From UHGV virus genome UHGV-0134778: a stretch of DNA of 64,000 bases; one strand, given 5' to 3'. Positions 32,367 through 50,009 of the stretch are shown piece by piece; within the stretch, counting starts at the first letter, position 1; each line of letters begins with the position of its first letter. The stretch comes from a virus. The position numbers were made by a program, and so were the translations under genes. Below the pieces are notes generated by a model that had not been told where the DNA came from, ran no database searches, and saw only the letters and a program-made list of their open reading frames with translations.

Positions 32367-33593
32367 TTAAAAAGGGATGTCATCATCAAAGGTGTACTGT
32401 GCCGGATTCTGATCCATCGGGTCGTCTTCCCCATCATCTACAGGAGGAGCGTCTACAGTGTTTTGCTGTGGAGAGGCTTCCTGTTTGGCAGCTTGAGGTT
32501 CTTGATGGTCAGTGGTCCCAGCACCGTTCTTGATCCAATCATACAACGGTTCAGCAAGATTAGTCAAGACATCTTTTGCCTCTGCAGTAATTGCTACTGC
32601 AAAATCATCAACTTTCGTTTTCTTGTCAATACGGCGACAAGCGTTCAATACCGCATTACCAACACTGGCACCTACTTCATCTTCAGTTCGGTTGGTGGCT
32701 TGAGCGTACTCTTTCTTAAGCTCGATGGTGACCACGTGCAGTGTTTTAGCCACATCTAAAGGGCTGTCAATCTTAAACCCGCGATCCAGGATGATCTGCA
32801 ATGCATTGATACTGTGCCCTGTCTCTACACCGATGGGGTCGTAAGAGGATTTACGCTTACCACCAGAACCTTGTGTACCGTTCTCTGCTTTAGGCGGGTA
32901 GGCCTTGAAGCCGCTGATAATATTCCCGGTATCTTTGTCAACAATAGCCGCAACACGACCGCCAACCACCAGGTCTTTAAGCTGCTCATCGGAGACAACC
33001 ATAGCACCTTCGCCAATCTTGTGGTCATTGACAGTAACCACGTTACCAACAATCTGAGTCACATCACCATAGATGCGTAAAACGTCCTGATTGGCATTCT
33101 GCTGAGGTTTCTGCTTCTGGCCTTGTGATTGTGTGCCTTGTTGCTGTTTTTGTTGCTGTGGAGCTGCTGGAGCCTCTCCTGCCCCCAGCTTAACCATTTT
33201 AGCCAATGAGCCTTTGTAGTAGGTCTTACCGTTATGCTCATTTGCCTTTAAAGGGATATTTACGATCCATCCTGGCGTTACTGTTTCCCACTTGTCATCA
33301 ATTTTAACAGAGACGGAATCTTGATGACCTGGTTTGAGCAATTTATCACCCATGCTGATCCAAACTTCTTCACCACCTTGGAGTAGGTTATCAGAAGAAT
33401 CCAGCTCAGAAATCAGTAAAGAGATGGTGTGGCTGGACTCAATTTTCTTACCTTGCCACACAGTGGTTTTAATACCTGTTGTGGGATCAGCACCTTTGAT
33501 TGGCTTGATGCTGACACGTTTAATCATACCGTGAGCCAGTAAAACAGTTTCACGAGGATTCATCGGGTTGGCAAATTGTTGAATAACGCTCAT
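32367..33593 (-). CDS. SSB-like single-stranded DNA-binding protein with canonical acidic C-terminal tail
   Basis: Ends ...DDGEDDPMDQNPAQYTFDDDIPF; DDDIPF is identical to the E. coli SSB C-terminal hexapeptide. Gln-rich linker; start at the ATG coupled to the upstream stop (TAATG). Sits next to the replication genes. Confidence 0.55.
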   Translation of the reverse strand: MSVIQQFANPMNPRETVLLAHGMIKRVSIKPIKGADPTTGIKTTVWQGKKIESSHTISLLISELDSSDNLLQGGEEVWISMGDKLLKPGHQDSVSVKIDDKWETVTPGWIVNIPLKANEHNGKTYYKGSLAKMVKLGAGEAPAAPQQQKQQQGTQSQGQKQKPQQNANQDVLRIYGDVTQIVGNVVTVNDHKIGEGAMVVSDEQLKDLVVGGRVAAIVDKDTGNIISGFKAYPPKAENGTQGSGGKRKSSYDPIGVETGHSINALQIILDRGFKIDSPLDVAKTLHVVTIELKKEYAQATNRTEDEVGASVGNAVLNACRRIDKKTKVDDFAVAITAEAKDVLTNLAEPLYDWIKNGAGTTDHQEPQAAKQEASPQQNTVDAPPVDDGEDDPMDQNPAQYTFDDDIPF

Positions 33594-33958
33594 TATTTGT
33601 CTCCTTGTTCTTCGTTGGTGTTTGCTGTGTGTGCAAACCCTGCTTGAATTAATTTGTCCTGCACTTGAGCCAACAGGCCCATTGCAAAACTTGTCGTCCC
33701 AGAAAGGGCCATTAGCATATCTCGTTGCTGAGCTACCCAACCTAAGGCATAATCCAAACGACGATATTTTTCTTCTTCGCGCAGAGCCTGGAATAACTGT
33801 TCAGCCTCTGGTTGTTGTGTGAGCTCCTGAAGTCTCCCCATGAAAGAAGAAAGTACCAGCAGAAGAGACACTTGATCTTTGCTTAACCCTAAGAAAAATT
33901 CTTGAGGTTGTTCTTGCTCGTTCATCGCAACCGACGTTTGATCGTTCATTTGTTCCAT
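33593..33958 (-). CDS. hypothetical protein
   Basis: Start at the ATG after GGAG (MEQMNDQ...); the track ORF is longer. Confidence 0.45.
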   Translation of the reverse strand: MEQMNDQTSVAMNEQEQPQEFFLGLSKDQVSLLLVLSSFMGRLQELTQQPEAEQLFQALREEEKYRRLDYALGWVAQQRDMLMALSGTTSFAMGLLAQVQDKLIQAGFAHTANTNEEQGDK

Positions 33959-34040: not shown

Positions 34041-34286
34041 TTAGCCAATTACTTCGAAAGTACCCCAACTCCCGTTCAGCAGGCAGGTGATCGGATCACC
34101 ATCATCGTCAATTATTTCAAAGTTTTCAACATCCAGAATATGGTCATCGAACACAATACTTTCGTCACCACCACCAGAAACAACAGTGTATTCCTTACCT
34201 TGAGTCAAGTTTTGACACCCTTTGCCACCAAAACCTACTTCAACACAACGTACTTTCTGTCCTGCGCGAGCAACTACTTCAGCCAT
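34041..34286 (-). CDS. hypothetical acidic protein
   Basis: 81-aa ORF. Confidence 0.45.
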   Translation of the reverse strand: MAEVVARAGQKVRCVEVGFGGKGCQNLTQGKEYTVVSGGGDESIVFDDHILDVENFEIIDDDGDPITCLLNGSWGTFEVIG

Positions 34287-34303
34287 CTTAAGGTCTCCTG
34301 ATA

Positions 34304-34606
34304 TTAATCGTCAAGTTCAAAATAGATTTTAACAGCTTCATCAAAGATTGGAATCCCGATGTTGTTGATAAGCTGCCAAACTACCATATCTTTTCCTGGA
34401 TCTGGGAGAATGTCAACCTTTCTCCATGCGCTGTATATCCAGTTCGGACCGCCTTCTGCACTAACTGGTAGATTTTCACCAGCTTCCTGTAGATACTTAT
34501 ACAGCAAAAGATATTCTGGGTACTCTAGAACACTATCTTCTGTAGTATACAGCAGTTCACGGTATACTTTCAAGAATCCTGTTGGGTTGATGTTTTCAGT
34601 CTTCAT
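34304..34606 (-). CDS. hypothetical protein
   Basis: Start at the ATG after AGGAG; track alternative 34624. Confidence 0.45.
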   Translation of the reverse strand: MKTENINPTGFLKVYRELLYTTEDSVLEYPEYLLLYKYLQEAGENLPVSAEGGPNWIYSAWRKVDILPDPGKDMVVWQLINNIGIPIFDEAVKIYFELDD

Positions 34607-34997
34607 TTGCTGCTTCTCCTGCATTCATCAGATCTGCCATAGCGTCACCAACGAAGAGGACAACCACGTCGTTGACAGCGTCAGCATCATCTTTATTGAT
34701 GTTGCTGAATTTGGGGCACACTGCAATGACCATATAGACCCCGTTGCCCAACTGAACAGTGCGTGTAGTGCACATCAGTGTGGTGCTTGTGCCTTCTTTA
34801 AAGGCAAATCCTTGCAGACGTTCTTCCAGAGAGTCACCTGTTGATTTCAACAAGGCAAGATCTCCCAATGCGTAGGTAGTGTCCTCATAGGTAAGTCCAG
34901 AGGTCAATGTTACCTTTCCATCAGAGACTATAATAACTCCATCGGCACCGTCAAGCTCAGAGGCTTCAAAGATATTAATATCCCAAATGTTTTTCAT
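34596..34997 (-). CDS. hypothetical protein
   Basis: Start at the ATG after GAGGAAG; track alternative 35015. Confidence 0.45.
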   Translation of the reverse strand: MKNIWDINIFEASELDGADGVIIVSDGKVTLTSGLTYEDTTYALGDLALLKSTGDSLEERLQGFAFKEGTSTTLMCTTRTVQLGNGVYMVIAVCPKFSNINKDDADAVNDVVVLFVGDAMADLMNAGEAANED

Positions 34998-35259
34998 CAC
35001 GCGCTTCCTCGTCATCTAATGAGTTGAAGATTTCACCGAAGTATTCTAAGACTTCCAGCTCACGGGTGGTGCAGAAAACACAGTCCCCGTTGTCATCTTC
35101 GATAACGGCCTCTTTGCCAAGAACATCCACTTCAAATTCATCGTTTAACAGAACGGAACCTGTGTAAACTTTATCTGCCGTGCAGTCCCGAAAAGCAGAG
35201 TCCTTCTCCAAGTAGTCTGGCTTAACCTTGGCTTTAATTCGTTGATATTGTTTGGTCAT
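34975..35259 (-). CDS. hypothetical protein, paralogue of 35323..35577
   Basis: SAFRDCTADKVY and DDNGDCVFCT align with AFKDCTIGTVY and DDEGDSVWCT of the neighbour; promoter 35291-35319 and RBS AAAGGGGA. Confidence 0.45.
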   Translation of the reverse strand: MTKQYQRIKAKVKPDYLEKDSAFRDCTADKVYTGSVLLNDEFEVDVLGKEAVIEDDNGDCVFCTTRELEVLEYFGEIFNSLDDEEARDEKHLGY

Positions 35260-35290
35260 TGCTGTGGTCCCCTTTCGTTTTGATAGGGCC

Positions 35291-35319
35291 ATCATATTAG
35301 GCCCTATCGCTGTTGTCAA
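35291..35319 (-). promoter_or_regulatory. sigma70-type promoter overlapped by a 9-bp-arm palindrome
   Basis: Minus strand TTGACA (35314-35319), 17 nt, TATGAT (35291-35296); GATAGGGCC...GGCCCTATC spans the spacer and -10. Confidence 0.5.
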
Positions 35320-35322
35320 GTA

Positions 35323-35577: not shown

Positions 35578-35627
35578 CTTGGCGGTCTCCTTAATTATTT
35601 AAAATCAACGCTCTGTCTGTGTGGGGT

Positions 35628-36734: not shown

Positions 36735-36783
36735 AAAAGTCTCCTCTCTGTCTAACAACACTTCCGTGTGTTGATAGTTTACA

Positions 36784-39561
36784 TTAGTGACAATCACCCC
36801 AGTTACGACCACACAAGTATTCACCTGTGATCTGGAACGGAACGCCCATCATTTTAGAAGCTTGCCAGAAGCAATGTACCACCATTTCGCCCACAGGGCT
36901 CCAGATAAGTTCAAGCTTTCCGTCATCGTTCAAGATAGGATCGTATACCGTATTTCCATCCCTGTCAACTACTTCGTTTCCTTCTTCATCCTTGCGTGCC
37001 TTTTTGTACTTATGACCGTCGAACACATGAAGTTTAGCCTCCTGCTGGGACTTAAATGTTTCCAGCTCTTCAATTGTGTCGAAGGTGTATACAGTTTTAT
37101 ACTTAGGTGTGTCAGGGACTTGAAGTTGATATTCGTCATGGTAATAAATAATACGACGAACACCCTCATCATACCATCCACGCTTCACCATCTGGTGGTG
37201 CATGAGTATCCCAACTAAGTCACACAATGATGCACCGCCATTTTGCTGATATGCATTAAGCAAAGAGTGTTTAGATCGGGTCCAAATGGCATGACCGTCA
37301 AAAGAGTAGATAAATTTCTTACCTGTTGCTTCCCAGAATTTCTCCAGATCCTCTTTACGACCCTTAAGACCTGGGTTGGCATCCCAGAGAGCGTCAATTA
37401 CTCTCTGTCCCAGTTCTGGAGAGATATCTAGCATATCTGCAACTTTATCTTTTTGTGCCCCGTACATAACCCCATACGTGACAGGCTTACCATCGTTACG
37501 AGACACCTCCCTGCCTGCTACTTTTGTATATGCCTCAGCATTGTTTTGGTGCGCATCTCCGTTACTTACAACATCATAATACAGACCGTTGTCAAACTCA
37601 AAGGCACCCCAGGCCCCGATGAGCTGCTCTAAGTTGGACCCGTCAATACCGATCTCAAAGTATCCTGGAGGAACACCCCACAGACTACGCATCTCTTTAC
37701 CCATAACCACTTTAGGAGATGGTTTAGGCATGTTTGCACAAATGCTGTGTTTCTGTCTGGAAGTGTTTGTTAATCCAGAACTTTTAGCAGGAAGCTTATG
37801 GTCAATCTTCAAACGTGGATGATTAAGAAGACCAGTATCAACCTTATCCTCCTTGATTGGATCAAGGACCGATCTACGGTTTCGCAAGGATAACCACAAG
37901 ACGATATCTTTAGCCATCTCTCCGTTCAACTTTTCAAGATTCGGACATAGGTGTCCAAACGTATCTTTCAGTTGCGGAGAAGTAATAAGCGCTCTGGCTT
38001 TTCTACGTATCTTCCCAAACACTTCCTTTTTAATCCTTTCTGAGTTAGGGAAGCTTCGGAACTTGTGCACGGTTGTCTGAAACTTAGCATCAGTTTTGTT
38101 CCAGAAGTTGATAATTAGGTCACAATACTCTGACTCTAAAAGCTCGTCCATATATGCATATACTCGTGCATCAACATCAGCATCAGGCAGAGCTTTCTTC
38201 TTGCTGTCCTTGGTTACATCTTTAGTTCTCCACATTGTTGGGAGCCAACCAGCGCTGATCAAATATCGCTTAATATCGTCCTGGTTGCTGATCTTCATAG
38301 GTATCTTGCAGTCAGGCATCCGCTTCTGCTGCAGATCACTTATTGCCTGATCCATTAGTTCTTTAGGTAAAGGATGTGGTGTAGAGGTTCCTTTGATATA
38401 CCCCCTCAAGAAATCAGCCATCTTATCTGGGTCTTTACAGCCCATCTCTTCACACCATTTTATCCCCATTTTGCTGACATCCCCTGTGGAGGTAAATGCT
38501 CGCTTAGGAGGAGCTTTGAACTCTAAAGCGCTCATGTCCACAGGATAGCCAAGCTTGTCTTTTAACCATTTCCAACCATTATTGGAGATTGTCCCATCCT
38601 GGTTAAACGGCTTTTCAGGGAACTTAGGCCGCTGAGACATTGATAACTCTTTTAAAGGAAGTTGTGGTTCAACACGATCAGCGATCTCCTTCATCCACGC
38701 ATCGCAGCGGTCACGTAAAGCAATAGCTCCATCTATGTCGAAATACACACCCTGTCGAGCCTGCAGCTCCATCAGGAAATGCTGCAGCATGCCTCGGCGT
38801 AATGCATTCTTCCAGGTAATCTTCTTGAATCCTTTAGGCTTCTCTTTGGCAGGGTCATACATAAAGTTCTGCATGTCAGATTTGCCGTAGAATACACCTT
38901 TTGATTCCGCTACCAACTCTTTCCAGAGCAACTCCTGGATGATAACGTCCTCGAACACACGATCCACATATTTCCACAGCGGAAGCTCACGCCAGTCATC
39001 GATTTGAACTTTCTGGTTACCAAGGGCATAGCCCCATGCCATAAGGCCATGAGGTCCAACAGGCTGCATTTTCTTGGTAACTGGATTGAATACTGCGTCC
39101 GGACAACCTTTTGGCAAAGGGCGGTCAGGCCACAAGATTCGACTCATCGCTAACGTATCAAACAGATTAACCTGGTGGTCGTTGATAGTTCCCATGCATT
39201 TAGGATCACGGAACATATCAAAATGAATACCGGATAATCTTTCCATCAGCATAAAGTCGTAACTGTAGCAGTTATGGCAGTTCAAAGCCGTAGGTGACCA
39301 GTCTGAATTGCCTGTAAGCCAGCCTTCCAACTCTGAAAAATCTGCTATGCGAGCCTCAAAATCTGTATAAAGGGTCTTCTTTGCCAGAATGAAGTTCTTA
39401 GCTTTCTCCACATCCTCTTCAGAGTAGTGTGTGCGGTCATTTAGAGGAAGGAACAGCATAAAACGGTTCTTATTCAGCTCTTTAAACAAACCGCAGTGAT
39501 AATAAAGATCTGGGTCTTCCAGCAAGCCAGAGGCCTCAAAATCGAACGACCACATGCTCAT
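36784..39561 (-). CDS. family A DNA polymerase with 3'-5' exonuclease domain
   Basis: N-terminal Exo I-like FDFEASGL, polymerase motif B-like DGKPVTYGVMYGAQ and motif C IIYYHDEYQ; 925 aa. Confidence 0.9.
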   Translation of the reverse strand: MSMWSFDFEASGLLEDPDLYYHCGLFKELNKNRFMLFLPLNDRTHYSEEDVEKAKNFILAKKTLYTDFEARIADFSELEGWLTGNSDWSPTALNCHNCYSYDFMLMERLSGIHFDMFRDPKCMGTINDHQVNLFDTLAMSRILWPDRPLPKGCPDAVFNPVTKKMQPVGPHGLMAWGYALGNQKVQIDDWRELPLWKYVDRVFEDVIIQELLWKELVAESKGVFYGKSDMQNFMYDPAKEKPKGFKKITWKNALRRGMLQHFLMELQARQGVYFDIDGAIALRDRCDAWMKEIADRVEPQLPLKELSMSQRPKFPEKPFNQDGTISNNGWKWLKDKLGYPVDMSALEFKAPPKRAFTSTGDVSKMGIKWCEEMGCKDPDKMADFLRGYIKGTSTPHPLPKELMDQAISDLQQKRMPDCKIPMKISNQDDIKRYLISAGWLPTMWRTKDVTKDSKKKALPDADVDARVYAYMDELLESEYCDLIINFWNKTDAKFQTTVHKFRSFPNSERIKKEVFGKIRRKARALITSPQLKDTFGHLCPNLEKLNGEMAKDIVLWLSLRNRRSVLDPIKEDKVDTGLLNHPRLKIDHKLPAKSSGLTNTSRQKHSICANMPKPSPKVVMGKEMRSLWGVPPGYFEIGIDGSNLEQLIGAWGAFEFDNGLYYDVVSNGDAHQNNAEAYTKVAGREVSRNDGKPVTYGVMYGAQKDKVADMLDISPELGQRVIDALWDANPGLKGRKEDLEKFWEATGKKFIYSFDGHAIWTRSKHSLLNAYQQNGGASLCDLVGILMHHQMVKRGWYDEGVRRIIYYHDEYQLQVPDTPKYKTVYTFDTIEELETFKSQQEAKLHVFDGHKYKKARKDEEGNEVVDRDGNTVYDPILNDDGKLELIWSPVGEMVVHCFWQASKMMGVPFQITGEYLCGRNWGDCH

Positions 39562-39619: not shown

Positions 39620-41698
39620 TTAAAAAGGTGTTTCGTCGTCTTCAAAACCGGGGACGTGGTTAGAGGACGGATCATCATACTGAGGATCTTCCTGTGTGTC
39701 AACTGGGGTAACAGTAGGAGTTACAACCTTATCAGCCACAACCTTGCCCACAGGTGTTTCCACAACTGCATGATCTTGATCCTCAAACATAGCCTGAGGT
39801 CTCCAAACAACCTCCCCACCTTCTCCGTCTGTAAACATTTGCATTTCTTTATCCCAGTACCAATTGCTGGCATCGTGGAACTTGCCTGTGTGAGGATCCA
39901 TAACTAAAGTGTCCGCAATACCTAGGGTTTTTGCTGGGCGGTTTTTAAGACTTACCAGTCGGACACGTCCACGGGAACGATCCACCATCTCTTCTGCTTC
40001 TACCCCAACAACTACCCAGCTGAGTTGCTCCAATCCGGCACTACCTCGAAGGTTCTCTTTTCGTACAGGGTACCAGAAAGGCAACGGATTCCCATCCTTA
40101 TCCTTAGGAGGTACAATCTCTGTACGTTTCAGGTGAGCAATCACCAGGATAAACACATTAAACTGCTTACAGAACGCGGCTAGTTGAGTCATAGCCATGT
40201 CAAGTTCTTTGCGCTCATCCTTAACATTAAGCCCTGAAATCACCATAGACAAGTGATCCAGCACAATGTAACGGCAGTGATACAGGCACACCATTTGTTT
40301 AAGCTTAGTGATCAGCTCATCCACAGGGATGGAGCCGAAATGCTTGAACACTTTGATTTTTCCGGTCTTGGCCCAAGATTGATGAATCTCAGCGTGCTCC
40401 TGGTCGGTCAGGAACTGACTGGGGTCTTCAACAAACTCTTTAACATCAAACCCCAGCTGGTTAGCGTACAGAGAGTTGATTGCTTCCTCAGGATCCTCTT
40501 CAAGGTGAATCAGACACAGGCGATCATCCTCTTCATAATCATCAGCTTTAGGGCATGTTGGATCCATCAAGTATCTTGCAATGCAGTGTTCCAGCTTCTT
40601 GGCTATAGTTGTTTTACCACCGCCAGATGGGCCTGTTAGCATCATCAAGGTGCCTTTGTGGAGCCCTTTCAGCATCTTCTGCAATTTAGGGAACTCCGCA
40701 CTGATATCCACGCCATTGGAAGTCTTCTTACGAAGAGATTCAATGGAGAAGTCTTCTAAATCAGATACAGCATCAGGCACATATTTGACTGGGTGACGGA
40801 ACATGTTGACAATATCTTCCAGCTTTTTAGCCTTCAGCATGTCACGAATATCTTTTACACCATCGGGATCGTTTACCTCTCCTGGGTATTCCACGTGGTA
40901 AACGTTGTCAGCCATTAAAAATGCTGCGATATTATGTGTGGCTTCAACACCTTTGATAACGTGTTTTTGCTTCTCTACCTCGTTAGCTGCATCGTTGTCC
41001 ATTGCAAGGACCACTGTTCCATAGCTACGGATAAATTTCTCATTGTTCGCAAAAGTGTCTACGGCGTTTGCACACCCGCAGTTAATTCCAACAAAAGGCA
41101 GGCAGGGTTTTCCTGCCAGGTCTCCGCCGTTGATAACTGCATCAATCCCATCTTGAACTTCTTTAGCCCACTGCTTCACCTTCGCTGGGGCTTTAGCATT
41201 GGTGAGAATGCCCTTCACTTGTATCTGATATGCAGCTTGCCATGCTGCAATAACATCACCCTCCCCCTCGCAGACGTTAATCTGTTTACGGTTGTTGGAG
41301 GATGCACACAGCTTTTGACCAAACATCTGAGAGTTGGCCTTTACTATGCCAACAACTGAGAAATGGCCTCTTTGCTCTTTAGGGATTGTCCAGTCACGCT
41401 TTTTAAAGCCGGATAGATTACCGTAGCGGTCGTAATATGGGAAATATGTTGCGGTGACCGTTACCCCGTCTTCCTGAGACAATGCTGATCGCACACCAAA
41501 ATATTGTGCAGCCATCAGTCCGATATTTTGTTGTGGAACAGGGACAATTTTAGTATTTTCTAAAACAGTCTCTACAGTTTCAACCTCTTTTTCATCACGA
41601 TAGTCTCGTTTCACACTTCCCCCACTTTTATACTTAGTTGCTTTCGGGTTTGGCTCACCGAAACGGTTGTATGCAGATGCCATGAATTTACTGCCCAT
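39620..41698 (-). CDS. bifunctional primase-helicase (T7 gp4-like) with acidic C-terminal tail
   Basis: Toprim-like VVLAMDNDAANE, Walker A LTGPSGGGKTT, DnaB-type helicase region; C-terminus ...GFEDDETPF. Confidence 0.85.
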   Translation of the reverse strand: MGSKFMASAYNRFGEPNPKATKYKSGGSVKRDYRDEKEVETVETVLENTKIVPVPQQNIGLMAAQYFGVRSALSQEDGVTVTATYFPYYDRYGNLSGFKKRDWTIPKEQRGHFSVVGIVKANSQMFGQKLCASSNNRKQINVCEGEGDVIAAWQAAYQIQVKGILTNAKAPAKVKQWAKEVQDGIDAVINGGDLAGKPCLPFVGINCGCANAVDTFANNEKFIRSYGTVVLAMDNDAANEVEKQKHVIKGVEATHNIAAFLMADNVYHVEYPGEVNDPDGVKDIRDMLKAKKLEDIVNMFRHPVKYVPDAVSDLEDFSIESLRKKTSNGVDISAEFPKLQKMLKGLHKGTLMMLTGPSGGGKTTIAKKLEHCIARYLMDPTCPKADDYEEDDRLCLIHLEEDPEEAINSLYANQLGFDVKEFVEDPSQFLTDQEHAEIHQSWAKTGKIKVFKHFGSIPVDELITKLKQMVCLYHCRYIVLDHLSMVISGLNVKDERKELDMAMTQLAAFCKQFNVFILVIAHLKRTEIVPPKDKDGNPLPFWYPVRKENLRGSAGLEQLSWVVVGVEAEEMVDRSRGRVRLVSLKNRPAKTLGIADTLVMDPHTGKFHDASNWYWDKEMQMFTDGEGGEVVWRPQAMFEDQDHAVVETPVGKVVADKVVTPTVTPVDTQEDPQYDDPSSNHVPGFEDDETPF

Positions 41699-42482
41699 TA
41701 ATTCTGCTCCTTACTGCAGGCTCGTTTGCTAAGAATACAGCTTTAGCCCAGCCACGTGGTGTGAGGCTTCGAATCATCTTCGTCCTTGCACTCTTTCCAC
41801 CTAGCTTAGCGTGTTGCATAGAATAACCGCTAACCGCATCCACTATTTGCGGGACAGGTTTTGTGGCTGGGATTATAAATCCATTGCCTATCCAACCGCA
41901 AGTTATTTTTGGGTAGGCATCACGTGGAGCTATAAATTCAGGAAACCATGGGTTTACATCATCTTCTGGTAAATAACCGCCATAATCTGAAGGATGAAAA
42001 CGATAATCAGGTTTTCGCCACAGTGTGGACATAACCCCCACAGGGTTCTCTACATGCCACGGGCAATCGTAAATCTCTCCCAACTCTTCTGCAACCCGAG
42101 CATCTTTTACAGCATTAATTTGAATCAGAGGGTCCTTAGCCAGCTTTTTCTTAAAATGTGCAGCGCCTGATACTGCTAGATGCGTGCACGGAGGAAATGC
42201 AAGAATAAAGTCTGGAGCTGGGTACATGCAAAAAGTTTCTTGAGGGAACCACGGGTCAATCCAATAATCCACGTAGTGAATGTTTGGATGATCTGTTATC
42301 ACCTCTGCATAACTGCCATGGTCAGCGCCTTCTGCGTTAAAGCACAGGCACAGATATCCAGCTTTTGCCCAGTCAATGACTGCACCGCCAGATCCGTCAA
42401 ATAGACTCCACACAACACCTTTGTGGTGGTGTTCTTTATAGATAAATTTCAATTTGCTGTCTCCTAATGCAAAAAGCCCCAC
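41688..42482 (-). CDS. small C5-cytosine DNA methyltransferase-like protein
   Basis: Motif I-like LFDGSGG, motif IV-like FPPCTHLAVSG (PC catalytic dipeptide), motif VI-like HVENPVG (ENV). Only 264 aa, so activity and specificity are uncertain. Confidence 0.5.
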   Translation of the reverse strand: MGLFALGDSKLKFIYKEHHHKGVVWSLFDGSGGAVIDWAKAGYLCLCFNAEGADHGSYAEVITDHPNIHYVDYWIDPWFPQETFCMYPAPDFILAFPPCTHLAVSGAAHFKKKLAKDPLIQINAVKDARVAEELGEIYDCPWHVENPVGVMSTLWRKPDYRFHPSDYGGYLPEDDVNPWFPEFIAPRDAYPKITCGWIGNGFIIPATKPVPQIVDAVSGYSMQHAKLGGKSARTKMIRSLTPRGWAKAVFLANEPAVRSRINGQ

Positions 42483-43397: not shown

Positions 43398-43741
43398 CAG
43401 AAACCTCCCACTTCTTCAGCAAATGCAGCTGCTGTCGTCGCTGCATCCAGATAGGACTCTAGTTCACGGGCTGCACGTTTGTAAATTGAGTGGCGCATAT
43501 CGTTTGGCAGTTTGTGGAAGTCCACCTCTTCACCGTTGTGGTAAACATGCACATCGGTAATTTGTCTAAATCCGTAATAGTCAACATCAGAATCACGGCA
43601 CTCTGGGTCTGGCAACTGGACAACTGCCTGAGCTTCCACAGTGAACATCTCGTCAAGTTCGAAATCGATTTCAAAAGTGTATGGTTTATAACGTTTCATC
43701 ATTTGATTGTACTCTTTATTGGTCAGACTTATCTTTCGCAA
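43397..43741 (-). CDS. hypothetical protein
   Basis: 114 aa; coupled to the upstream gene. Confidence 0.5.
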   Translation of the reverse strand: MRKISLTNKEYNQMMKRYKPYTFEIDFELDEMFTVEAQAVVQLPDPECRDSDVDYYGFRQITDVHVYHNGEEVDFHKLPNDMRHSIYKRAARELESYLDAATTAAAFAEEVGGF

Positions 43742-45041
43742 TTAAGGTCGGGGTAAGTTTGTAATAACGGAAGCCACCACCACCTTCCCAGTTTACAGAC
43801 TTAGAAATACCACCTTGATCTTCACCATCGATCACTTTTTCCAAGCGCGGAATAATATGGGTATGACAATGATCACCTAGCTCGATTGAGATCCAACGTC
43901 TTTTCATCTTGTGAGCTACAGCAGCAGTAGTTCCCGAACCACCGAATGAATCCAATACCAAATCGCCTTCTCGCGTACACATTTCGAAAATCCGCTTCAA
44001 AAGCGCTTCTGGTTTTTTCCCATTTTTGAAACTAACGCCGCCTTCATTTGCTATTCCATTCCAACTAATGTCTGTCCAAACATCAGTTATTAGTTCCGCA
44101 GGTTGCATCTCACCGTCAATTTCCAAAAGCCTGTTGGAGTAAAAGACCATTTGCCTACCATTTGCGATATAAAATCCTTCAACATCTTCATTTGGATGTA
44201 CATAAACCTTATCCCTGTCTTTCTTTGACTTCTCGATAGTTTCTTTTCTCTTTATTTTAGCTCCACCGCCAATTGCAACAGATTGAAATACACGTTCTGC
44301 ATTATCAATTGCGAATTGTGCTAATTCATCATCGAATGTATCAGGCAGTTTTTTCTTGGCTTCTTTTGCATCTTTATAGCCATTGGCCTTTGCAAACGCA
44401 TCGGCAATACCGCACCACGTCCAATTTTTATAATGGTCATCCGGGTTTAATAGGTATTTGTTATATCCTGTATCATACCCTTTAGGTATATAGATTTTGT
44501 TAAGCGGTTTCTTGGTGCGATCTTTTGCATATACAAGCAAAAAGTTTGCTGTGGAGAAAACTGTGGCTCCTGTTGCCTTAAATCCCGAAGGAGAATTTGT
44601 GGTCATCGATATGGTATTTAACTGATTTGCACGACCAAAAATCTCGTCCATCAAAACTTTTAAATATGCCATTTCGCAATCATCTAAGTGAACGAATATT
44701 ACCCCATCATCACTTAGAAGATTACGAATTATTTCTAACCTATCCCTCATTAAGCCCAGCCAAATGGAATGCTCCAGGCTATCATCGTAGTGCTCAAAAG
44801 CCCTCCCGGTATTGAATGGTGGGTCTATGTAAACACACTTCACTTTGCCTGCATACTCTTGCTCTATCGCCTTCAATGCTAATAAGTTATCTCCAAAAAT
44901 CAGTTTATTATCAAAAATATCGTTTTCGGTCACTTTCTGGCTGTGGTAAGATTTGCTAGAATCTTCTAACAAAATGTACGGCTCTAACTTTTTGCGCTCG
45001 TTTTTACCTATCCAGGTAAGTTCTAATTTGGTTTTACTCAT
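43716..45041 (-). CDS. beta-class N6-adenine/N4-cytosine DNA methyltransferase (orphan, Type III Mod-like)
   Basis: N-terminal LTWIGK, catalytic motif IV VYIDPPFN ahead of AdoMet motif I VLDSFGGSGTT (beta-class order). No restriction subunit nearby. Confidence 0.8.
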   Translation of the reverse strand: MSKTKLELTWIGKNERKKLEPYILLEDSSKSYHSQKVTENDIFDNKLIFGDNLLALKAIEQEYAGKVKCVYIDPPFNTGRAFEHYDDSLEHSIWLGLMRDRLEIIRNLLSDDGVIFVHLDDCEMAYLKVLMDEIFGRANQLNTISMTTNSPSGFKATGATVFSTANFLLVYAKDRTKKPLNKIYIPKGYDTGYNKYLLNPDDHYKNWTWCGIADAFAKANGYKDAKEAKKKLPDTFDDELAQFAIDNAERVFQSVAIGGGAKIKRKETIEKSKKDRDKVYVHPNEDVEGFYIANGRQMVFYSNRLLEIDGEMQPAELITDVWTDISWNGIANEGGVSFKNGKKPEALLKRIFEMCTREGDLVLDSFGGSGTTAAVAHKMKRRWISIELGDHCHTHIIPRLEKVIDGEDQGGISKSVNWEGGGGFRYYKLTPTLIAKDKSDQ

Positions 45042-45102: not shown

Positions 45103-45444
45103 CTACTCAAGGTCTTCAGAGTCAAGCTCAAAAAGAATCAAACTGTGCATGCCTGCAGAGAGATTAACACACCCTGCAACAATAAGGGTTTGATAGTAAG
45201 GTTCAGCACCCTCAATATCTTCGTTAAAATCCACAACAAGGTAGTCACCTTTGTTAAAGGTGTATTTGTCCGATGTAAACGCAAAACCTGCCCAGTCCCC
45301 TACTGCAGGATCTTTATCAGTCACCTTTGTTAGCAGTAGATCTTTTTCACGAGATCTTTTAGTAAAATCGTGAATCACAACATCCTTCTCTTCAGAAGTC
45401 GGATTGCCACACACGTAGTTAACGATATTTCTCCACAAACTCAT
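45103..45444 (-). CDS. hypothetical protein
   Basis: 113-aa ORF. Confidence 0.5.
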   Translation of the reverse strand: MSLWRNIVNYVCGNPTSEEKDVVIHDFTKRSREKDLLLTKVTDKDPAVGDWAGFAFTSDKYTFNKGDYLVVDFNEDIEGAEPYYQTLIVAGCVNLSAGMHSLILFELDSEDLE

Positions 45445-46811
45445 ACGTCCCCCTTTTCTGCTCTAGTTTCAAAATCTTTCCTGACTTTCTCGTCTAAGCC
45501 AGGGAAAGTTGTATTATAAAACTCTACGACTCTCGGGTCAACAATAATATCCACCTCTCTTAATGGACGCAACAAGTTTATTCCTTGTATCGTCTTAACC
45601 CGACTCAAGGCAACATACGTCATTCCGGGAGAGAAAGCTCCGTTCTTTCCGAGGTCTAGGTTGTAACAATCTAACGTAAGTCCTTGACTTTTATGCGATG
45701 TTACTGCGTACCCAGATTTCAAAGGAAGTTGCTCATAAGACCCGATCACAACCCTCTCTATGAACTTCTCCATCTTCCTTTCGGCAATATTGTACCTCTG
45801 GGAAGGTTTGTACTCGTTATTCTCCCACAATCTTGGCTCAATTTCAACCTGTGTTCCGTCTTCTAGCTCAACTACTACGGATTTGGTCTTGAATTTTACC
45901 ACTGTGGCACGTGTCCCGTTAACATAATACGGAACTTTGTGAGTAGGGTCAACATCGTTTGAGGTTATCATAACCTTCATCCCTATCTTCAGCCTCATTT
46001 CCTGCTCCACAGGTAGTGTGGAAGGGAACTTACCTTTCATTTTACCAATGTAGGTCTTCTCTGGGGCCTTGATGGCATCATAGAAACGTCTGTTCACCTC
46101 CTCTGCTTGCTTATTGGTGGCACAGATGGTCAAGGCATCTGTTGGGACACCACCATGATAGCAACGAGTGTTAAGCTCTGCTACAACCTCTTTTATGCGA
46201 CGACCTTCACGAACACAGTTCAACATTGTGGCGAAGCGAACAGATTCCTGACGGAACTGGTCTACTAAGGCTATGTTGTGAAGATTAAGATCCTCCCAAG
46301 ATTCTGTATAGCAACACAGGTCTGTGTGGTAGAAGTTGAAGTAGGCTTCTTTCTCCATAGAAGAGACAACTGGAGGTGCTTGGTAGAAATCTCCAAACAA
46401 TAACACCTGAATGCCTCCGAAAGGTTTGTCATTTTTCCGAAGAAAGCGGAGTTTTCTATCCATCTCTATGAACTTGTCAGCACGGATCATAGAGATTTCA
46501 TCGATAATCAGGATGGTAAATGCCTTGCTTTTCAGAGGCTTTGCTGTTTTTGCCCTTATTGCTGTCCAGTCTGACTCCATGCTCACACCTGCGGCAAGAT
46601 CGAAAGTTCGGTGCGCTGTTGCTCCATTAACGTTTAAAGCGGCTACCCCTGTCGGGGCAACCGTTATGCAAGAGTCTCCATACATGGACTGGATCATGTT
46701 GATAAGATATGTCTTCCCGGTTCCACCAGGTCCACTTACGAAGACATTCTCACCGCTCATGATTGCAACAAGGGCAGCATCTGTGCCTACATCGTACTGC
46801 CCTTTTTCCAT
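45441..46811 (-). CDS. Dda/RecD/Pif1-like superfamily 1 DNA helicase
   Basis: Walker A VSGPGGTGKTY, Walker B ILIIDEISM and C-terminal SF1 helicase motifs; 456 aa, similar in size to T4 Dda. Confidence 0.8.
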   Translation of the reverse strand: MEKGQYDVGTDAALVAIMSGENVFVSGPGGTGKTYLINMIQSMYGDSCITVAPTGVAALNVNGATAHRTFDLAAGVSMESDWTAIRAKTAKPLKSKAFTILIIDEISMIRADKFIEMDRKLRFLRKNDKPFGGIQVLLFGDFYQAPPVVSSMEKEAYFNFYHTDLCCYTESWEDLNLHNIALVDQFRQESVRFATMLNCVREGRRIKEVVAELNTRCYHGGVPTDALTICATNKQAEEVNRRFYDAIKAPEKTYIGKMKGKFPSTLPVEQEMRLKIGMKVMITSNDVDPTHKVPYYVNGTRATVVKFKTKSVVVELEDGTQVEIEPRLWENNEYKPSQRYNIAERKMEKFIERVVIGSYEQLPLKSGYAVTSHKSQGLTLDCYNLDLGKNGAFSPGMTYVALSRVKTIQGINLLRPLREVDIIVDPRVVEFYNTTFPGLDEKVRKDFETRAEKGDV

Positions 46812-48052
46812 TACGCCTCCTCGTAGATAATGTCGATAGTATTACCGTCGCGGTCAACCACGTACTCAATTGGGTCGCCATCTTTGCGCGATTCTGGAGC
46901 TACTACGATTTCGTAGCGGCATGCACGGCACTTGGCGCTGTTGTGTTGGTAAGGTACACTAACTACATCGGCAGGGTCAACCATAACCGTCATCACAGTT
47001 CCGTAGCTCTTTGCATACTCTTTGCTGGCACAGTGCAGGCCATAAGAGCATGCAGCTTCCGGATCATCCTCTACAAAGTTACGAGGCATGGATACAAAAG
47101 CCCCCTGGTATTGTGGGACTTTACCACTGTGCCAATCCACCCACTTGTCGCCGTTAAACTGAACCCCTTTGTAGCAAATGATTCGACCATCTTCTGCAAT
47201 CTGAATGTCGTTTGCCTGCATAAAATCGTAGAGCATGTTTACAGATTTTGCAGAAGGATTGCGTAGCAGGCGAACGAGGAATTTCACATAGCGGTCATCC
47301 AGTGTTCCGTCTGCATAATCTTTCTCAATTTTCTTTGCAATGGTGGATCGCATCTCTACACCGTAGTAGTAGAGCTTACCATCTTTCATGATCAGGTTGT
47401 CTGCAAGTGTGGTGAACTCATTCTTGCGTTCCAGCCAGACAAGGATTTCACCAATTGCCTCGTCATATTCCTGAACAGAGATATGGTCGAAGACTTTCTG
47501 GTAAACTTCCTCACTTTCACTGCGGCGAATTTCAAAAATACCTTCGTTGCAGGTGATCTGGAGGAGTTCCCCGCAAATAACCACCAAAGGCTCGATGCTT
47601 CGGGTCTGTTGCTGAGACACACTGCTCACCACCTCCAGCACCGGGTCTTTTACTTCTACTAAAGGTTCTTCTGACTTGATTGCTACCCCAGTGAACCCTA
47701 CACCGTGAACAACACACAGTGGATATACCACACCCCAACGTTTAACGGAACCTTCTCCTAAATCTAAGATCATGGCGTACTTACCGTTATCTTCCAGCCC
47801 ATATCGAAATAAACGGGCCTCTTCACGGGTTTCAAAATCCTCACGGGTGTAGCAGACGCTGTCACGGTCAGGATCGAACAACTCTGGGGCACCTACTGCC
47901 AGTGTCCAGGTTGTGTTACCTTTCTCAATAGCGCATGTGAAACCCTTCTTCTCAAGCTCTGCACGGCGGTCACGTGCTTCTTTACGAGTTTTGAAATGTT
48001 CGTAGATGAAAATCATCTTGGTCTCCTTATTTGATGTTATTCTTTGTATCAA
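46811..48052 (-). CDS. rIIB: rIIB-like protein
   Basis: C-terminal block FLVRLLRNPSAKSVNMLYDFMQANDIQIAEDG...HSGK...MPRNFVEDD...YGLHCASKEY...VVSVPYQHNSAKCRACRYE resembles my recollection of T4 rIIB; lies directly downstream of rIIA on the same strand. Confidence 0.65.
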   Translation of the reverse strand: MIQRITSNKETKMIFIYEHFKTRKEARDRRAELEKKGFTCAIEKGNTTWTLAVGAPELFDPDRDSVCYTREDFETREEARLFRYGLEDNGKYAMILDLGEGSVKRWGVVYPLCVVHGVGFTGVAIKSEEPLVEVKDPVLEVVSSVSQQQTRSIEPLVVICGELLQITCNEGIFEIRRSESEEVYQKVFDHISVQEYDEAIGEILVWLERKNEFTTLADNLIMKDGKLYYYGVEMRSTIAKKIEKDYADGTLDDRYVKFLVRLLRNPSAKSVNMLYDFMQANDIQIAEDGRIICYKGVQFNGDKWVDWHSGKVPQYQGAFVSMPRNFVEDDPEAACSYGLHCASKEYAKSYGTVMTVMVDPADVVSVPYQHNSAKCRACRYEIVVAPESRKDGDPIEYVVDRDGNTIDIIYEEA

Positions 48053-50009
48053 TCAGTTCACGGTATTCAATCATAGCAGGAGTGTCCCAATATTTCAAGC
48101 CTACATGCTTCAAAAGTGGATATTTCTTTTCCAATCTTGCAATATAGGCCTTCCCGCACTTAACCCGGTTGGCGATTAAGATTTTGGCACGATGATTTAG
48201 CTCACCGTACTTCCACGTGGTGCTACCTTCCCACTTGTGGAAATGTGGCCGATAACTTCCAAAATCCTGCATGGGGATAATTTTACCTAACTGTCTGTAC
48301 AGGCTGTCATATGAAGTTTCATTTGCTGCGCGAGTTAGTAAGAATTTCCAAGCATCCTCTTTCAACAAATGTTCCACATTCTTCTCTGTAACATATTGGC
48401 AATCAGGATCAGTCCAAAGCAGACGAGATTCCGACACCAGGTACAGATCTTCCCCTTCAGGAATCTGGAGTGCCGCACGCACACGGTCATAATCTTGCTG
48501 GTAGATGTTGCTCATCTGCCCTAGCCAACAACTTCCGCGTTGGATATCCCCCTCATACGGTATGCAGTGCTTAATCTTCCTGAACTCTGCCTTAGTAATA
48601 CGCTCACGCCGGAAGTAACCATCCTTCTCAAGTTTTTTAACCCAATAGCCTGGTTCGTAACGGGTTTTGGTTTCACCTTTCTTCGTAGGTCGGCGTGGAA
48701 GCTCCGATAACAATTTGACCGTATCTGCAAAAAACGGATGGTGTGCCGCCTCTTTAAACTCTTTCACCAGATCCGTGTTACGGCAATAGAAAACGTTGCG
48801 TCCGGTAATCTCGCTTAAGTAGTTACACTTATTCCGGTTATATTTGCCGTCTCCGTCGTTAAATACTAAATAAACTCCCCGTAAGAATTCTACCTTTCCG
48901 TAGCAGGCGTAACCTATGCGGCCTTTATTTAAGCCGCCAGCGAAGATCTCGCAGTCCCCCAAATTTCCTAGCCCTGTTTCTTCCCAGCGGTCATACATAA
49001 AATTCTTACCGAAGATGTGCCCGAACACTCCACTGTTCTTCATCATCTCGCGTGCTTCTGAGGATGTTTTTGCTGTCTCCAGTTCTGCAACAACTTCTGC
49101 TCCACGAAGGCGAATGCCTTCTTTGACAAAAGCTTCCAAACGCTCTTGGAATCCACCATCGTCGTGACCTTCTATGGTCCATTCACGCCCTGGGTTAATA
49201 TTGCAATCTCCGATAGGGATCTCTACACAAATTGCAGGATAATCTATTAGTGTCTCCAGGAACTTAGAACGGTAAGGTTGGTGACCCATTACCACACGAC
49301 TCTCGTCAGAGCTGGTATAACCCTTCAGGATGGTCATCTTCCAACCATCTTTTTCATAATAATACTGCGCCTCTACTTTGTCTCCCTCCAGCATCTTGCT
49401 CGTCATCGGGTCGGTGACAGTGAACGGAAATTTTGCATAGCGCAGGCATGATGCAATAGCGGTGCGATATTTCAGAACATGCTCTTTCTTAACATGAAAC
49501 TGAACTTTTACCCCGTTGTGCTCTTCAGTCTTCCGCTCACGGATCTTGGTGACATTTGGGATACCCTGGTCCAAGAACAATAGGTATGTGCTTTCCACAC
49601 CGTTGTGCACACTGATTACATCGAAAGTGTCCACCATGCTGAACGGGGCCTTTGAACCAACACCTTTATTGCCTACCAGAGCGTTGCTGTTGCGCTTGGT
49701 CGACTCACCGAGGTTCATGAAAGTGTTACGGACCATCTCTTCTGACATGCCTAATCCAACGTCCTGCACAAAGAAGTATGGTTCAAGGTCTGTAGGAGAG
49801 TGAATGATGATCGGTACATCACCTCGTCCAGACTCAACATGTGAGTCCACAGCATTGAAGATCGGTTCACGGCAGCTTGCCAGTACCTTATCTTCATAAA
49901 TCCCTTTGATGATTAGCCCAAAAGTCTCTTTGTTCAGAGAAATTGATCCCCTGGTTACCTCCATATTCCCAGTTAGCACCGCTTTAGTTTCATTGCTGTT
50001 TACAATCAT
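48027..50009 (-). CDS. rIIA: rIIA-like protein (GHKL-type ATPase fold)
   Basis: LASCREPIFNAVDSH, FFVQDVGLGMS and VGNKGVGSKAPFSMVDTF correspond to the conserved N-terminal ATPase-like blocks recalled from T4 rIIA. Confidence 0.8.
   Translation of the reverse strand: MIVNSNETKAVLTGNMEVTRGSISLNKETFGLIIKGIYEDKVLASCREPIFNAVDSHVESGRGDVPIIIHSPTDLEPYFFVQDVGLGMSEEMVRNTFMNLGESTKRNSNALVGNKGVGSKAPFSMVDTFDVISVHNGVESTYLLFLDQGIPNVTKIRERKTEEHNGVKVQFHVKKEHVLKYRTAIASCLRYAKFPFTVTDPMTSKMLEGDKVEAQYYYEKDGWKMTILKGYTSSDESRVVMGHQPYRSKFLETLIDYPAICVEIPIGDCNINPGREWTIEGHDDGGFQERLEAFVKEGIRLRGAEVVAELETAKTSSEAREMMKNSGVFGHIFGKNFMYDRWEETGLGNLGDCEIFAGGLNKGRIGYACYGKVEFLRGVYLVFNDGDGKYNRNKCNYLSEITGRNVFYCRNTDLVKEFKEAAHHPFFADTVKLLSELPRRPTKKGETKTRYEPGYWVKKLEKDGYFRRERITKAEFRKIKHCIPYEGDIQRGSCWLGQMSNIYQQDYDRVRAALQIPEGEDLYLVSESRLLWTDPDCQYVTEKNVEHLLKEDAWKFLLTRAANETSYDSLYRQLGKIIPMQDFGSYRPHFHKWEGSTTWKYGELNHRAKILIANRVKCGKAYIARLEKKYPLLKHVGLKYWDTPAMIEYRELIDTKNNIK

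What the first reader, a model, noticed from the sequence alone, without database searches (positions are those of the whole stretch)
32367..50009. Mosaic replication module: T7-type replisome parts with SSB-style acidic tails next to T4-type rIIA, rIIB and Dda
The polymerase is family A and the primase-helicase is a single T7 gp4-like protein ending ...EDDETPF. The SSB-like protein ends in DDDIPF, identical to the E. coli SSB C-terminal hexapeptide, so it may recruit host SSB-interacting proteins or the phage polymerase. The same region carries rIIA, rIIB and a Dda-like helicase, which are associated with T4-type phages. This mix suggests modular exchange between lineages, and the DDDIPF tail is a specific, testable interaction motif.
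Basis: partly seen in the sequence, partly recalled or inferred. Interest (0 to 1): 0.55.

Follow-up and report, generated by a model that had tools for sequence, protein, structure and literature searches.

The report
rV5-type phage replication module, SSB mimic
This is the standard, vertically inherited DNA-replication gene block of an rV5-like (Vequintavirus) coliphage, not a T7/T4 patchwork; its one notable part, a two-OB-fold SSB-like protein that copies the E. coli SSB tail, was already described in a 2026 preprint.

Summary
They are a family A polymerase, a gp4-like primase-helicase ending EDDETPF, a 408-aa protein ending DDDIPF, a PIF1/Dda-type helicase, rIIB and rIIA.

The window is a Vequintavirus (rV5-like). 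The block is 92-96% identical over its full length to more than 110 phage genomes.

The "mosaic" reading is not supported:
- The same six genes lie in the same order in other genera of the subfamily (4MG, BIS47).
- All six give the same three-taxon relationship.
- They have uniform GC.
- They are equally distant (25-37% identity) from their T7 or T4 namesakes.
- rIIA homologues occur in 2,641 phage records of many lineages.

The tail observation is real. The 408-aa protein has no sequence match to any SSB family. It is predicted to have two OB folds, a helical domain and a disordered tail, and the terminal PF is invariant across the family.

The protein is 97% identical to Bas52_0087. A 2026 preprint identifies Bas52_0087 as an SSB-like trigger of the DRT10 defence system and notes the E. 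coli-like tip.

What I did not find in the papers searched: the helicase carries the same kind of tip, and some relatives cap both tails with the same 15-residue extension.

Interest is low to moderate.

The parts
32330..32351 (-). Intrinsic terminator hairpin directly after the SSB-like gene
   Evidence: 9-bp stem with 7 GC pairs, followed by ATTTTTGTAT (sequence).
32367..33593 (-). SSB-like protein (408 aa plus stop); orthologue of Bas52_0087; PHROG 4477
   Evidence: No Pfam match. phrog_4477 'unknown function', E 4e-172. 97% identical to Bas52_0087. AF2 model has mean pLDDT 74.
33180..33593 (-). OB fold 1 (aa 1-138)
32898..33083 (-). OB fold 2 (aa 171-232), a minimal five-strand barrel; absent in shorter family members
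32529..32837 (-). Four-helix domain (aa 253-355), the best-conserved part of the protein; holds Y351, with D252 at its N-terminal edge (the two DRT10 escape sites)
   Evidence: pLDDT 91-96. Conserved GVETGH..N and VG..VGNAVLNACRR motifs. No specific PDB match. The preprint places D252V and Y351C at a putative oligomerisation interface.
32370..32528 (-). Disordered acidic tail (aa 356-408); the tip FDDDIPF lies at 32370-32390
   Evidence: pLDDT below 50. P407 and F408 are invariant. Only this part aligns with E. coli or lambdoid SSB.
36784..39561 (-). Family A DNA polymerase with 3'-5' exonuclease domain, uninterrupted here
   Evidence: Relatives carry insertions at window positions 37128/37138 and 37521/37549.
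39620..41698 (-). gp4-like primase-helicase; the tail tip EDDETPF lies at 39623-39643
   Evidence: Pfam DnaB_C and AAA_25. phrog_239. Residues 88-605 align with T7 gp4A residues 111-540. There is no Cys in the first ~125 residues, so no T7-type zinc-binding domain. The tail is conserved.
41688..42482 (-). DNA methyltransferase (Dcm-like in relatives)
   Evidence: phrog_757, E 4e-87. Annotated this way in RudolfGeigy.
43716..45041 (-). N6/N4 DNA methyltransferase, an accessory gene with low GC
   Evidence: Pfam N6_N4_Mtase, E 2.6e-42. GC is 0.394 against 0.447-0.477 for the core genes. Not annotated at this position in 4MG or BIS47.
45441..46811 (-). SF1B PIF1/RecD/Dda-type helicase
46811..48016 (-). 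rIIB
   Evidence: phrog_609, E 1.6e-61. 37% identical to T4 rIIB, E 4e-38.
48027..50009 (-). rIIA (GHKL-type ATPase N-terminus)
   Evidence: phrog_612 over the full length, E 2e-123. Pfam HATPase_c_3. 28% identical to T4 rIIA over 198 aa.

Best explanation
The region is the conserved early/middle replication block of a Vequintavirus (rV5-like myovirus), inherited as a unit within the subfamily Vequintavirinae.

It encodes a compact replisome of the kind first described in T7, with three core parts:
- a family A polymerase with a proofreading domain;
- a fused primase-helicase, here without the zinc-binding domain;
- an SSB-like protein.

The block also carries an SF1B helicase, two methyltransferases and the rIIA/rIIB pair.

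The SSB-like protein is a non-canonical family, PHROG 4477. It has two OB folds, a four-helix domain (probably for oligomerisation), a disordered linker and a tip, FDDDIPF, that copies the E. coli SSB C-terminal tip.

The most likely mechanism is as follows. The OB folds coat single-stranded DNA. The free tip then docks into SSB-tip-binding pockets on partner proteins. These partners would be host SSB-interacting proteins such as exonuclease I, and probably also the phage polymerase. The helicase tail (EDDETPF) would use the same kind of pocket, as the gp4 and gp2.5 tails do on T7 polymerase.

Shown: gene identities, synteny, tail conservation, the predicted folds, and (in the preprint) that the orthologue is needed to trigger DRT10.

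Inferred: ssDNA binding, oligomerisation, and the identity of the tail partners.
For: Identity and inheritance:
- 92-96% nucleotide identity over the full region to 112 phage records.
- Same gene order in 4MG and BIS47.
- Congruent identities for all six genes.
- Uniform GC.

SSB-like protein:
- The weak BFVD matches beyond the family itself include several phage SSB and DUF2815 entries among mostly unnamed proteins.
- The tail is disordered and its PF is invariant.
- Members from Seunavirus and Mydovirus carry PPLDFDDDIPF and EPPMDFDDDIPF, close to the E. coli tip ...EPPMDFDDDIPF.
- It is 97% identical to Bas52_0087. For that protein a preprint reports an SSB-like architecture with two OB folds, the FDDDIPF tip, DRT10 escape mutations D252V and Y351C, and a functional link to ExoI.
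- The 2013 rV5 genome paper lists no SSB.
- No canonical SSB or gp2.5 homologue is in the window.

Shared-pocket idea:
- T7 gp2.5 ends DEDGDF and T7 gp4 ends SNDTDF. Both tails contact T7 polymerase (PMC12339929).
- The helicase PF tail is kept in 112 of 120 homologues, including ICP1.
- In BIS47 the helicase and the SSB-like protein carry the same 15-residue extension after PF.
- A phage SSB tip recruiting a phage partner is documented for HK620 SSB and Sak4 (PMC5928155).
Against: - No experiment shows ssDNA binding or any tail-partner contact for this protein.
- No sequence-level link to PF00436 or gp2.5 was found.
- The T7 'front basic patch' (KWKRRWIKGLDGRK) aligns with GKKFIYSFDGHAI in this polymerase, so that docking site is not conserved, at least in a 25%-identity alignment.
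- According to the preprint, expressing Bas52_0087 alone neither harmed cells nor triggered DRT10.
- Only the 64-kb window, not the whole genome, was checked for a second SSB.
Confidence: 0.72

Rival explanations
1. One reading: the block is a mosaic assembled by modular exchange between a T7-type lineage (polymerase, primase-helicase, SSB) and a T4-type lineage (rIIA, rIIB, Dda).
For: The protein families were first described in T7 and T4 respectively. The nearest outgroup, ICP1, shares the polymerase (43%) and primase-helicase (48%) but shows no rIIA, rIIB or helicase homologue within 14 kb either side of its primase-helicase. Gene content therefore does differ at deep divergence.
Against: - Collinear in three genera.
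- All six genes give the same three-taxon pattern.
- Uniform GC.
- Identity to T4 and T7 proteins is uniformly low, 25-37%.
- rIIA homologues occur in 2,641 records of many unrelated phage groups.
- The helicase matches PIF1/RecD better than it matches T4 Dda.
Confidence: 0.08
2. The 408-aa protein is mainly a decoy rather than the replicative SSB. Its host-type tip would soak up or redirect host SSB-interacting proteins (ExoI, RecQ, PriA and others), protecting phage DNA ends or disabling host repair. The host SSB would serve replication.
For: - Identity of up to 12 residues with the E. coli SSB tip in relatives.
- The preprint reports that ExoI dosage modulates DRT10 and proposes that the protein competes with or displaces SbcB.
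- The gene sits at the far end of the operon, away from the polymerase.
Against: - Two OB folds are not needed for a pure decoy.
- The gene occupies the same slot after the polymerase in Vequintavirinae, phi92-like phages and (as an unrelated family with the same tip) ICP1. That fits a core replication role.
- No other SSB was found in the window.
Confidence: 0.2
3. The tails serve only contacts inside the phage replisome, as in T7: both dock on the phage polymerase. On this view the resemblance to the host tip is convergence on a generic acidic-aromatic motif.
For: - T7 precedent for both tails.
- The helicase also carries the motif.
- In BIS47 the helicase and the SSB-like protein carry the same extension.
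- The helicase PF tail is present in every phage examined whose polymerase is 43-60% identical to this one (4MG, BIS47, ICP1). It is absent in phage alia, whose polymerase is only about 24% identical.
Against: - The T7 basic patch is not conserved in this polymerase.
- Identity with the host tip extends beyond the acidic-aromatic minimum (PPMDFDDDIPF).
- There is a genetic link to host ExoI.
Confidence: 0.3

Closest known systems
Bas52_0087 of Escherichia phage RudolfGeigy (Bas52), the SSB-like trigger of the DRT10 (UG17) defence system (bioRxiv 10.64898/2026.04.29.721553)
   Same: 97% identical over all 408 residues. D252, Y351 and the FDDDIPF tip are all retained. My models give the same two-OB-fold plus disordered-tail architecture.
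   Different: Nothing of substance; this is the same protein in a sister phage. The preprint does not test ssDNA binding or the tail. In the passages I read it does not mention the helicase tail or the 15-residue extension.
E. coli SSB and lambdoid-phage SSBs (Pfam PF00436)
   Same: An OB fold, a disordered linker and the acidic tip ...DFDDDIPF.
   Different: There is no sequence similarity outside the tip. Each chain has two OB folds and an extra four-helix domain. The oligomeric state is unknown.
T7 replisome (gp5 polymerase, gp4 primase-helicase, gp2.5 SSB)
   Same: A family A polymerase, a fused primase-helicase and an SSB. Both the helicase and the SSB end in acidic tails with a terminal Phe.
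   Different: - Identity is only about 25%.
- The helicase has no zinc-binding domain.
- The SSB-like protein is unrelated to gp2.5.
- The tip is of the host-SSB type (IPF or TPF) rather than DF.
- The T7 front basic patch is not conserved.
- The genome is a 137-kb myovirus.
T4 rIIA, rIIB and Dda
   Same: Homologous families: rIIB 37%, the rIIA N-terminus 28%, Dda 28% over 162 aa. rIIA and rIIB are adjacent here; in T4 they abut across the circular map junction.
   Different: rII homologues are spread over many phage lineages. The helicase is closer to the PIF1/RecD profiles than to Dda. Nothing indicates a T4-lineage origin.
Vibrio phage ICP1 ORF57, ORF58 and ORF68
   Same: The closest outgroup: polymerase 43% and primase-helicase 48% identical. 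The order is the same, primase-helicase, polymerase, small ORFs, then a ~390-aa protein ending LDDSIPF. The helicase ends DGDEPF.
   Different: ORF68 belongs to an unrelated family (phrog_2544) and shares only the tip with this protein. No rII genes lie nearby.

Membership tests
Vequintavirus (rV5-like) genome | High nucleotide identity and collinearity with sequenced members | tested here: met
   128 records match. 112 cover at least 80% of the 17.6-kb region at 92-96.5% identity.
PHROG 4477 / Bas52_0087 SSB-like family | Full-length sequence match | tested here: met
   phrog_4477 E 4e-172 over residues 1-408. 97% identity to Bas52_0087. The family has 249 clusters at 50% identity.
Bacterial-type SSB (Pfam PF00436) | Sequence match of the OB domain to the family profile | tested here: not met
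   No Pfam hit for the protein or for 68 diverse relatives. PDB phmmer and hmmsearch, and hhalign against a lambdoid SSB, align only the tip.
Bacterial-type SSB (Pfam PF00436) | OB fold of the ssDNA-binding type | tested here: met
Bacterial-type SSB (Pfam PF00436) | Disordered linker ending in an acidic tip with C-terminal Pro-Phe | tested here: met
   pLDDT below 50 for aa 359-403. The protein ends FDDDIPF. PF is invariant.
Bacterial-type SSB (Pfam PF00436) | Binds ssDNA; homotetramer | not testable with these tools
   No biochemistry is available. The preprint offers only a predicted oligomerisation interface.
T7 gp2.5 family | Sequence similarity to gp2.5 | tested here: not met
   blastp and phmmer find nothing. 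hhalign probability is 0.3%. There are only weak Foldseek matches to DUF2815 and phage SSB entries.
T7 gp4-type primase-helicase | DnaB-family hexameric helicase domain fused to a primase (TOPRIM) domain in one chain | tested here: met
   DnaB_C 1.7e-13 and AAA_25 5.7e-15. Residues 88-605 align with gp4A residues 111-540, E 4e-21. phrog_239 'DNA primase/helicase', E 3e-159.
T7 gp4-type primase-helicase | N-terminal Cys4 zinc-binding domain | tested here: not met
   No cysteine in the first ~125 residues (sequence). The gp4 alignment starts at gp4 residue 111.
T7 gp4-type primase-helicase | Acidic C-terminal tail ending in Phe | tested here: met
   The protein ends EDDETPF. 112 of 120 homologues end in PF. 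T7 gp4A ends SNDTDF.
Family A DNA polymerase | Polymerase domain motifs plus a 3'-5' exonuclease domain | tested here: met
   DNA_pol_A E 1e-7, although just below Pfam's cut-off at 31.6 against 34.3 bits. phrog_8888 and phrog_17. Both domains align with T7 gp5.
rIIA / rIIB | Homology to T4 rIIA and rIIB; adjacent genes | tested here: met
   phrog_612 E 2e-123 and phrog_609 E 1.6e-61. T4 rIIA E 1.7e-20 and T4 rIIB E 4e-38. The two genes are 10 nt apart.
T4 Dda | Orthology to Dda rather than general SF1B membership | tested here: inconclusive
   28% identity over 162 aa, E 1e-4 by blastp and 0.009 by phmmer. The PIF1 profile is much stronger at 1.8e-33. The PHROG name is 'Dda-like'.

The most novel reading that the evidence does not exclude
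The replicative helicase and the SSB-like protein of this phage lineage both present a host-SSB-type tip to one shared docking pocket. That pocket could be on host SSB-interacting proteins such as ExoI, on the phage polymerase, or on both.

A transferable 15-residue cap, AP(I/V)GLQY..H.I..(L/I), can be added after the terminal Phe. It is absent from this window. It is present on both proteins in Mydovirus, on canonical lambdoid SSBs, and on phi92-like and some Vequintavirus SSB-like proteins. The cap buries the free carboxylate that SSB-tip pockets normally read, so it would switch or mask partner choice.

If true, this would be an undescribed regulatory module of SSB-tip signalling shared by three unrelated protein families.
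Probability: 0.25. Interest if true: 0.55.

Novelty: already known. Interest (0 to 1): 0.3.

Why it matters
The region itself is routine. It is a well-sampled phage group whose polymerase, helicases, methyltransferases and rII genes are annotated in public records.

The SSB-like protein matters because it fills a gap: the rV5 genome paper lists no SSB. It also matters because phage SSBs are a recurrent trigger of bacterial immunity. This very protein triggers DRT10, and that role and its host-like tip are already in a 2026 preprint.

What remains open and testable:
- whether the helicase tail and the SSB-like tail compete for one pocket, as in T7;
- whether that pocket is on a host or a phage protein;
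- what the optional 15-residue cap does.

Tried and rejected
1. Sequence homology of the 408-aa protein to known SSBs. I used Pfam on it and on 68 relatives, phmmer and hmmsearch against PDB sequences, and hhalign against a lambdoid SSB, T7 gp2.5 and ICP1 ORF68. Only the tip aligns.

2. Conservation of the T7 polymerase front basic patch as a docking site. It is not conserved in a 25%-identity alignment, so the result is uninformative or negative.

3. The idea that the 15-residue extension is only a by-product of a homing-endonuclease insertion. This fits Vequintavirus: in CM1 the endonuclease gene starts inside the extension. It does not fit mEp235 or BIS47, where no endonuclease lies next to the extension.

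4. Literature search for the extension motif as a string. No relevant paper was found.

5. A second SSB in the window, searched with phmmer using a lambdoid SSB and T7 gp2.5 against all ORFs. None was found. T4 gp32 was not among the queries. The rest of the genome was not scanned.

6. tRNA genes in the window. None were found.

7. The DARNA preprint on phage SSBs. It does not cover Vequintavirus.


Full report
**What the window is.** The 17.6-kb region matches 128 phage records. Of these, 112 cover at least 80% of it at 92-96.5% nucleotide identity. Those whose records were read in detail belong to Vequintavirus, the rV5-like myoviruses of about 137 kb. All genes of the region lie on the minus strand.

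**Check of the observation.**
- Family A polymerase, 36784-39561 (925 aa). Pfam DNA_pol_A scores E 1e-7, just under the curated cut-off. PHROG 'DNA polymerase' scores 4e-143. Both the exonuclease and the polymerase parts align with T7 gp5 at about 25% identity.
- Primase-helicase, 39620-41698 (692 aa). It has a DnaB-type helicase domain. Residues 88-605 align with residues 111-540 of T7 gp4A (25% identity, E 4e-21), which covers the primase and the helicase. It ends GFEDDETPF. There is no cysteine in its first ~125 residues, so it lacks the zinc-binding domain of gp4.
- The protein ending DDDIPF, 32367-33593 (408 aa). A terminator hairpin follows directly.
- Helicase, 45441-46811. It matches the PIF1 profile at 1.8e-33 and a PHROG named 'Dda-like'. 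It is only 28% identical to T4 Dda over 162 residues.
- rIIB (46811-48016) and rIIA (48027-50009). Both are clear homologues of the T4 proteins, at 37% and 28% identity.

Among 347 ORFs of at least 50 aa in the window, only the two replication proteins end in acidic-x-Pro-Phe.

**The DDDIPF protein.** By sequence it is an orphan.
- It has no Pfam family. This also holds for 68 diverse relatives.
- Its PHROG (4477) is 'unknown function', and the relatives whose annotation I read in full call it 'hypothetical protein'.
- Profile searches against PDB sequences, and profile-profile comparisons with a lambdoid SSB and with T7 gp2.5, align nothing but the last 8-9 residues.

An AlphaFold2 model built on 25 homologues (mean pLDDT 74) shows four parts:
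- a beta-rich domain, aa 1-138;
- a Gln-rich disordered linker, followed by a small five-strand barrel, aa 171-232;
- a confidently predicted four-helix domain, aa 253-355;
- a disordered tail.

**How the tail behaves in evolution.**
- P407 and F408 are invariant in homologues down to 28% identity, while the linker before them varies freely.
- A scan of 1.84 billion representative proteins finds 249 family clusters. Of the 146 new representatives listed, 110 end in acidic-xPF, most often DDDIPF.
- Members from Seunavirus and Mydovirus carry PPLDFDDDIPF and EPPMDFDDDIPF. These are close to E. coli SSB, which ends ...EPPMDFDDDIPF.

**Prior description.** The window protein is 97% identical, with the same length, to Bas52_0087 of phage RudolfGeigy. 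A bioRxiv preprint of April 2026 (10.64898/2026.04.29.721553) reports the following:
- Bas52 escapes the DRT10 reverse-transcriptase defence through D252V or Y351C in this gene.
- The motif FDDDIPF resembles the E. coli SSB tip.
- Host ExoI (SbcB), a classical SSB-tip partner, modulates the system.

Both escape positions are retained here. D252 is among the nearly invariant columns. My analysis reproduces that description independently. The preprint does not test ssDNA binding or the tail. The 2013 rV5 genome paper names a ligase, the polymerase and two helicases but no SSB. No canonical SSB or gp2.5 homologue is in the 64-kb window.

**The helicase tail.** 112 of 120 homologues of the primase-helicase end in PF after acidic residues, for example DFDNDTPF in 4MG and DQDGDEPF in ICP1. 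T7 gp4A ends SNDTDF and T7 gp2.5 ends DEDGDF. Both T7 tails contact the T7 polymerase, and a DTDF peptide mimicking the gp4 tail sits on gp5 in PDB 6P7E (PMC12339929). It also suggests that the two tails in this phage address a common pocket. The T7 front basic patch is not conserved in this polymerase, so the pocket, if it lies on the polymerase, is elsewhere.

**The mosaic claim.**
- Seunavirus 4MG and Mydovirus BIS47 have the same order: rIIA, rIIB, helicase, small genes, methyltransferase (annotated in BIS47 only), primase-helicase, polymerase, small genes, SSB-like protein, then convergent tail genes.
- Identities between the window and 4MG are 38-60% for all six proteins.
- For every one of the six genes, 4MG and BIS47 are closer to each other (58-93%) than either is to the window phage (32-60%).
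- GC is 0.447-0.477 for the six genes. Only the accessory N6 methyltransferase stands out, at 0.394.
- rIIA homologues occur in 2,641 phage records, including Streptomyces, Felix O1-like and Pseudomonas phages.
- Identity to the T4 and T7 namesakes is uniformly low.

The block is therefore an old, co-inherited unit of the subfamily. The T7 and T4 labels are historical names.

At greater depth, gene content does change. ICP1, the nearest outgroup for the polymerase (43%) and the primase-helicase (48%), has no rII genes nearby. The slot after its polymerase holds a protein of an unrelated family that nevertheless ends LDDSIPF.

**Side observation.** A conserved 15-residue extension, AP(I/V)GLQY..H.I..(L/I), follows the terminal PF in some relatives. 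It is absent from this window. It occurs in:
- many Vequintavirus SSB-like proteins (P0001 stands for 533 sequences);
- phi92-like phage alia;
- both the SSB-like protein and the primase-helicase of BIS47;
- canonical lambdoid SSBs such as that of mEp235.

These are documented.

In Vequintavirus the extension comes with a 624-nt 'endonuclease VII' gene. That gene is inserted exactly between the Phe codon and the stop and terminator, and its start codon lies inside the extension. The window carries the empty site. Elsewhere the extension occurs without an endonuclease. A string search of the literature found nothing on it.

**Verdict.** The tail idea is sound, but its main element, the SSB-like protein with a host-type tip, has already been published for the same protein. 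The mosaic interpretation fails its own refutation test. The remaining open points are the partner of the two tails and the role of the extension.

Noticed in passing
Site at window 32367-32369 (stop codon of the SSB-like gene); seen in L003 2559-2605, L004 2043-2090, L005/L012 primase-helicase ends, L009 20052-20099, L011 7710-7757: A conserved 15-residue extension, AP(I/V)GLQY..H.I..(L/I), follows the terminal ...PF in three unrelated protein families: the PHROG 4477 SSB-like proteins, the primase-helicases, and canonical lambdoid SSBs such as mEp235 (...DDDIPFAPVTLPFPRHAIHAI). In Klebsiella phage BIS47 both the SSB-like protein and the helicase carry it. The window lacks it. It would bury the free carboxylate of the terminal Phe. 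Its function is unknown, and a string search of the literature found nothing on it.
   Followed up: partly
Window 32352-32369 (empty site); L003 2577-3200 (Shigella phage CM1): In roughly 35-40 of the Vequintavirus records, a 624-nt 'endonuclease VII' gene is inserted exactly between the Phe codon and the stop and terminator of the SSB-like gene. The encoded protein is 207 aa with a Cys-rich N-terminus and is probably a homing endonuclease. Its start codon lies inside the 15-residue extension. The window carries the uninterrupted allele.
   Followed up: partly
Window 37128/37138 and 37521/37549 (inside the polymerase gene); L001 7751-8035, L002 8155-9150: The polymerase gene is intact here. 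Relatives carry insertions at two different sites. RudolfGeigy has about 285 nt, annotated as a two-piece join. NHEP1 has about 996 nt, annotated as one long ORF. Other relatives annotate a split polymerase next to an HNH endonuclease. These are probably mobile introns or inteins.
   Followed up: partly
L013 21897-23063 and 13893-15932 (Vibrio phage ICP1_2006_E): ICP1 is the closest outgroup for the polymerase and the primase-helicase. In the same slot after its polymerase it has a 388-aa protein of an unrelated family (phrog_2544, unknown function) that ends LDDSIPF. Its primase-helicase ends DQDGDEPF. This looks like replacement of the SSB-type gene with the tip retained. The ICP1 protein was not modelled.
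   Followed up: partly
Window 39620-41698, N-terminal ~125 residues (41324-41698): The primase-helicase has no cysteine in its first ~125 residues, so it lacks the Cys4 zinc-binding domain that T7 gp4 needs for template-directed priming. How this enzyme recognises priming sites is open.
   Followed up: no
Window 33591-33595: The start codon of the SSB-like gene shares one base with the stop codon of the upstream gene (33593-33958/34003, phrog_7310, unknown function, helical). The same shared base is annotated in RudolfGeigy and NHEP1. This suggests translational coupling and possibly a partner protein.
   Followed up: no
Window 34041-36824: This is a run of small minus-strand ORFs that look like tandem paralogues by eye. 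Three at 36035-36824 share a ...DD.G..W(Y/F)(L/I)... motif. Three at 34041-35577 share ...(K/R)DCT.G.VY...DD.GD...C.... No tool was used to check this.
   Followed up: no
Window 43716-45041: The N6/N4 adenine methyltransferase has a clearly lower GC (0.394; GC3 0.367) than the surrounding core genes (0.447-0.477). No such gene is annotated at this position in 4MG or BIS47. It is likely a genus-level accessory acquisition, and it is the only compositional outlier in the region.
   Followed up: partly
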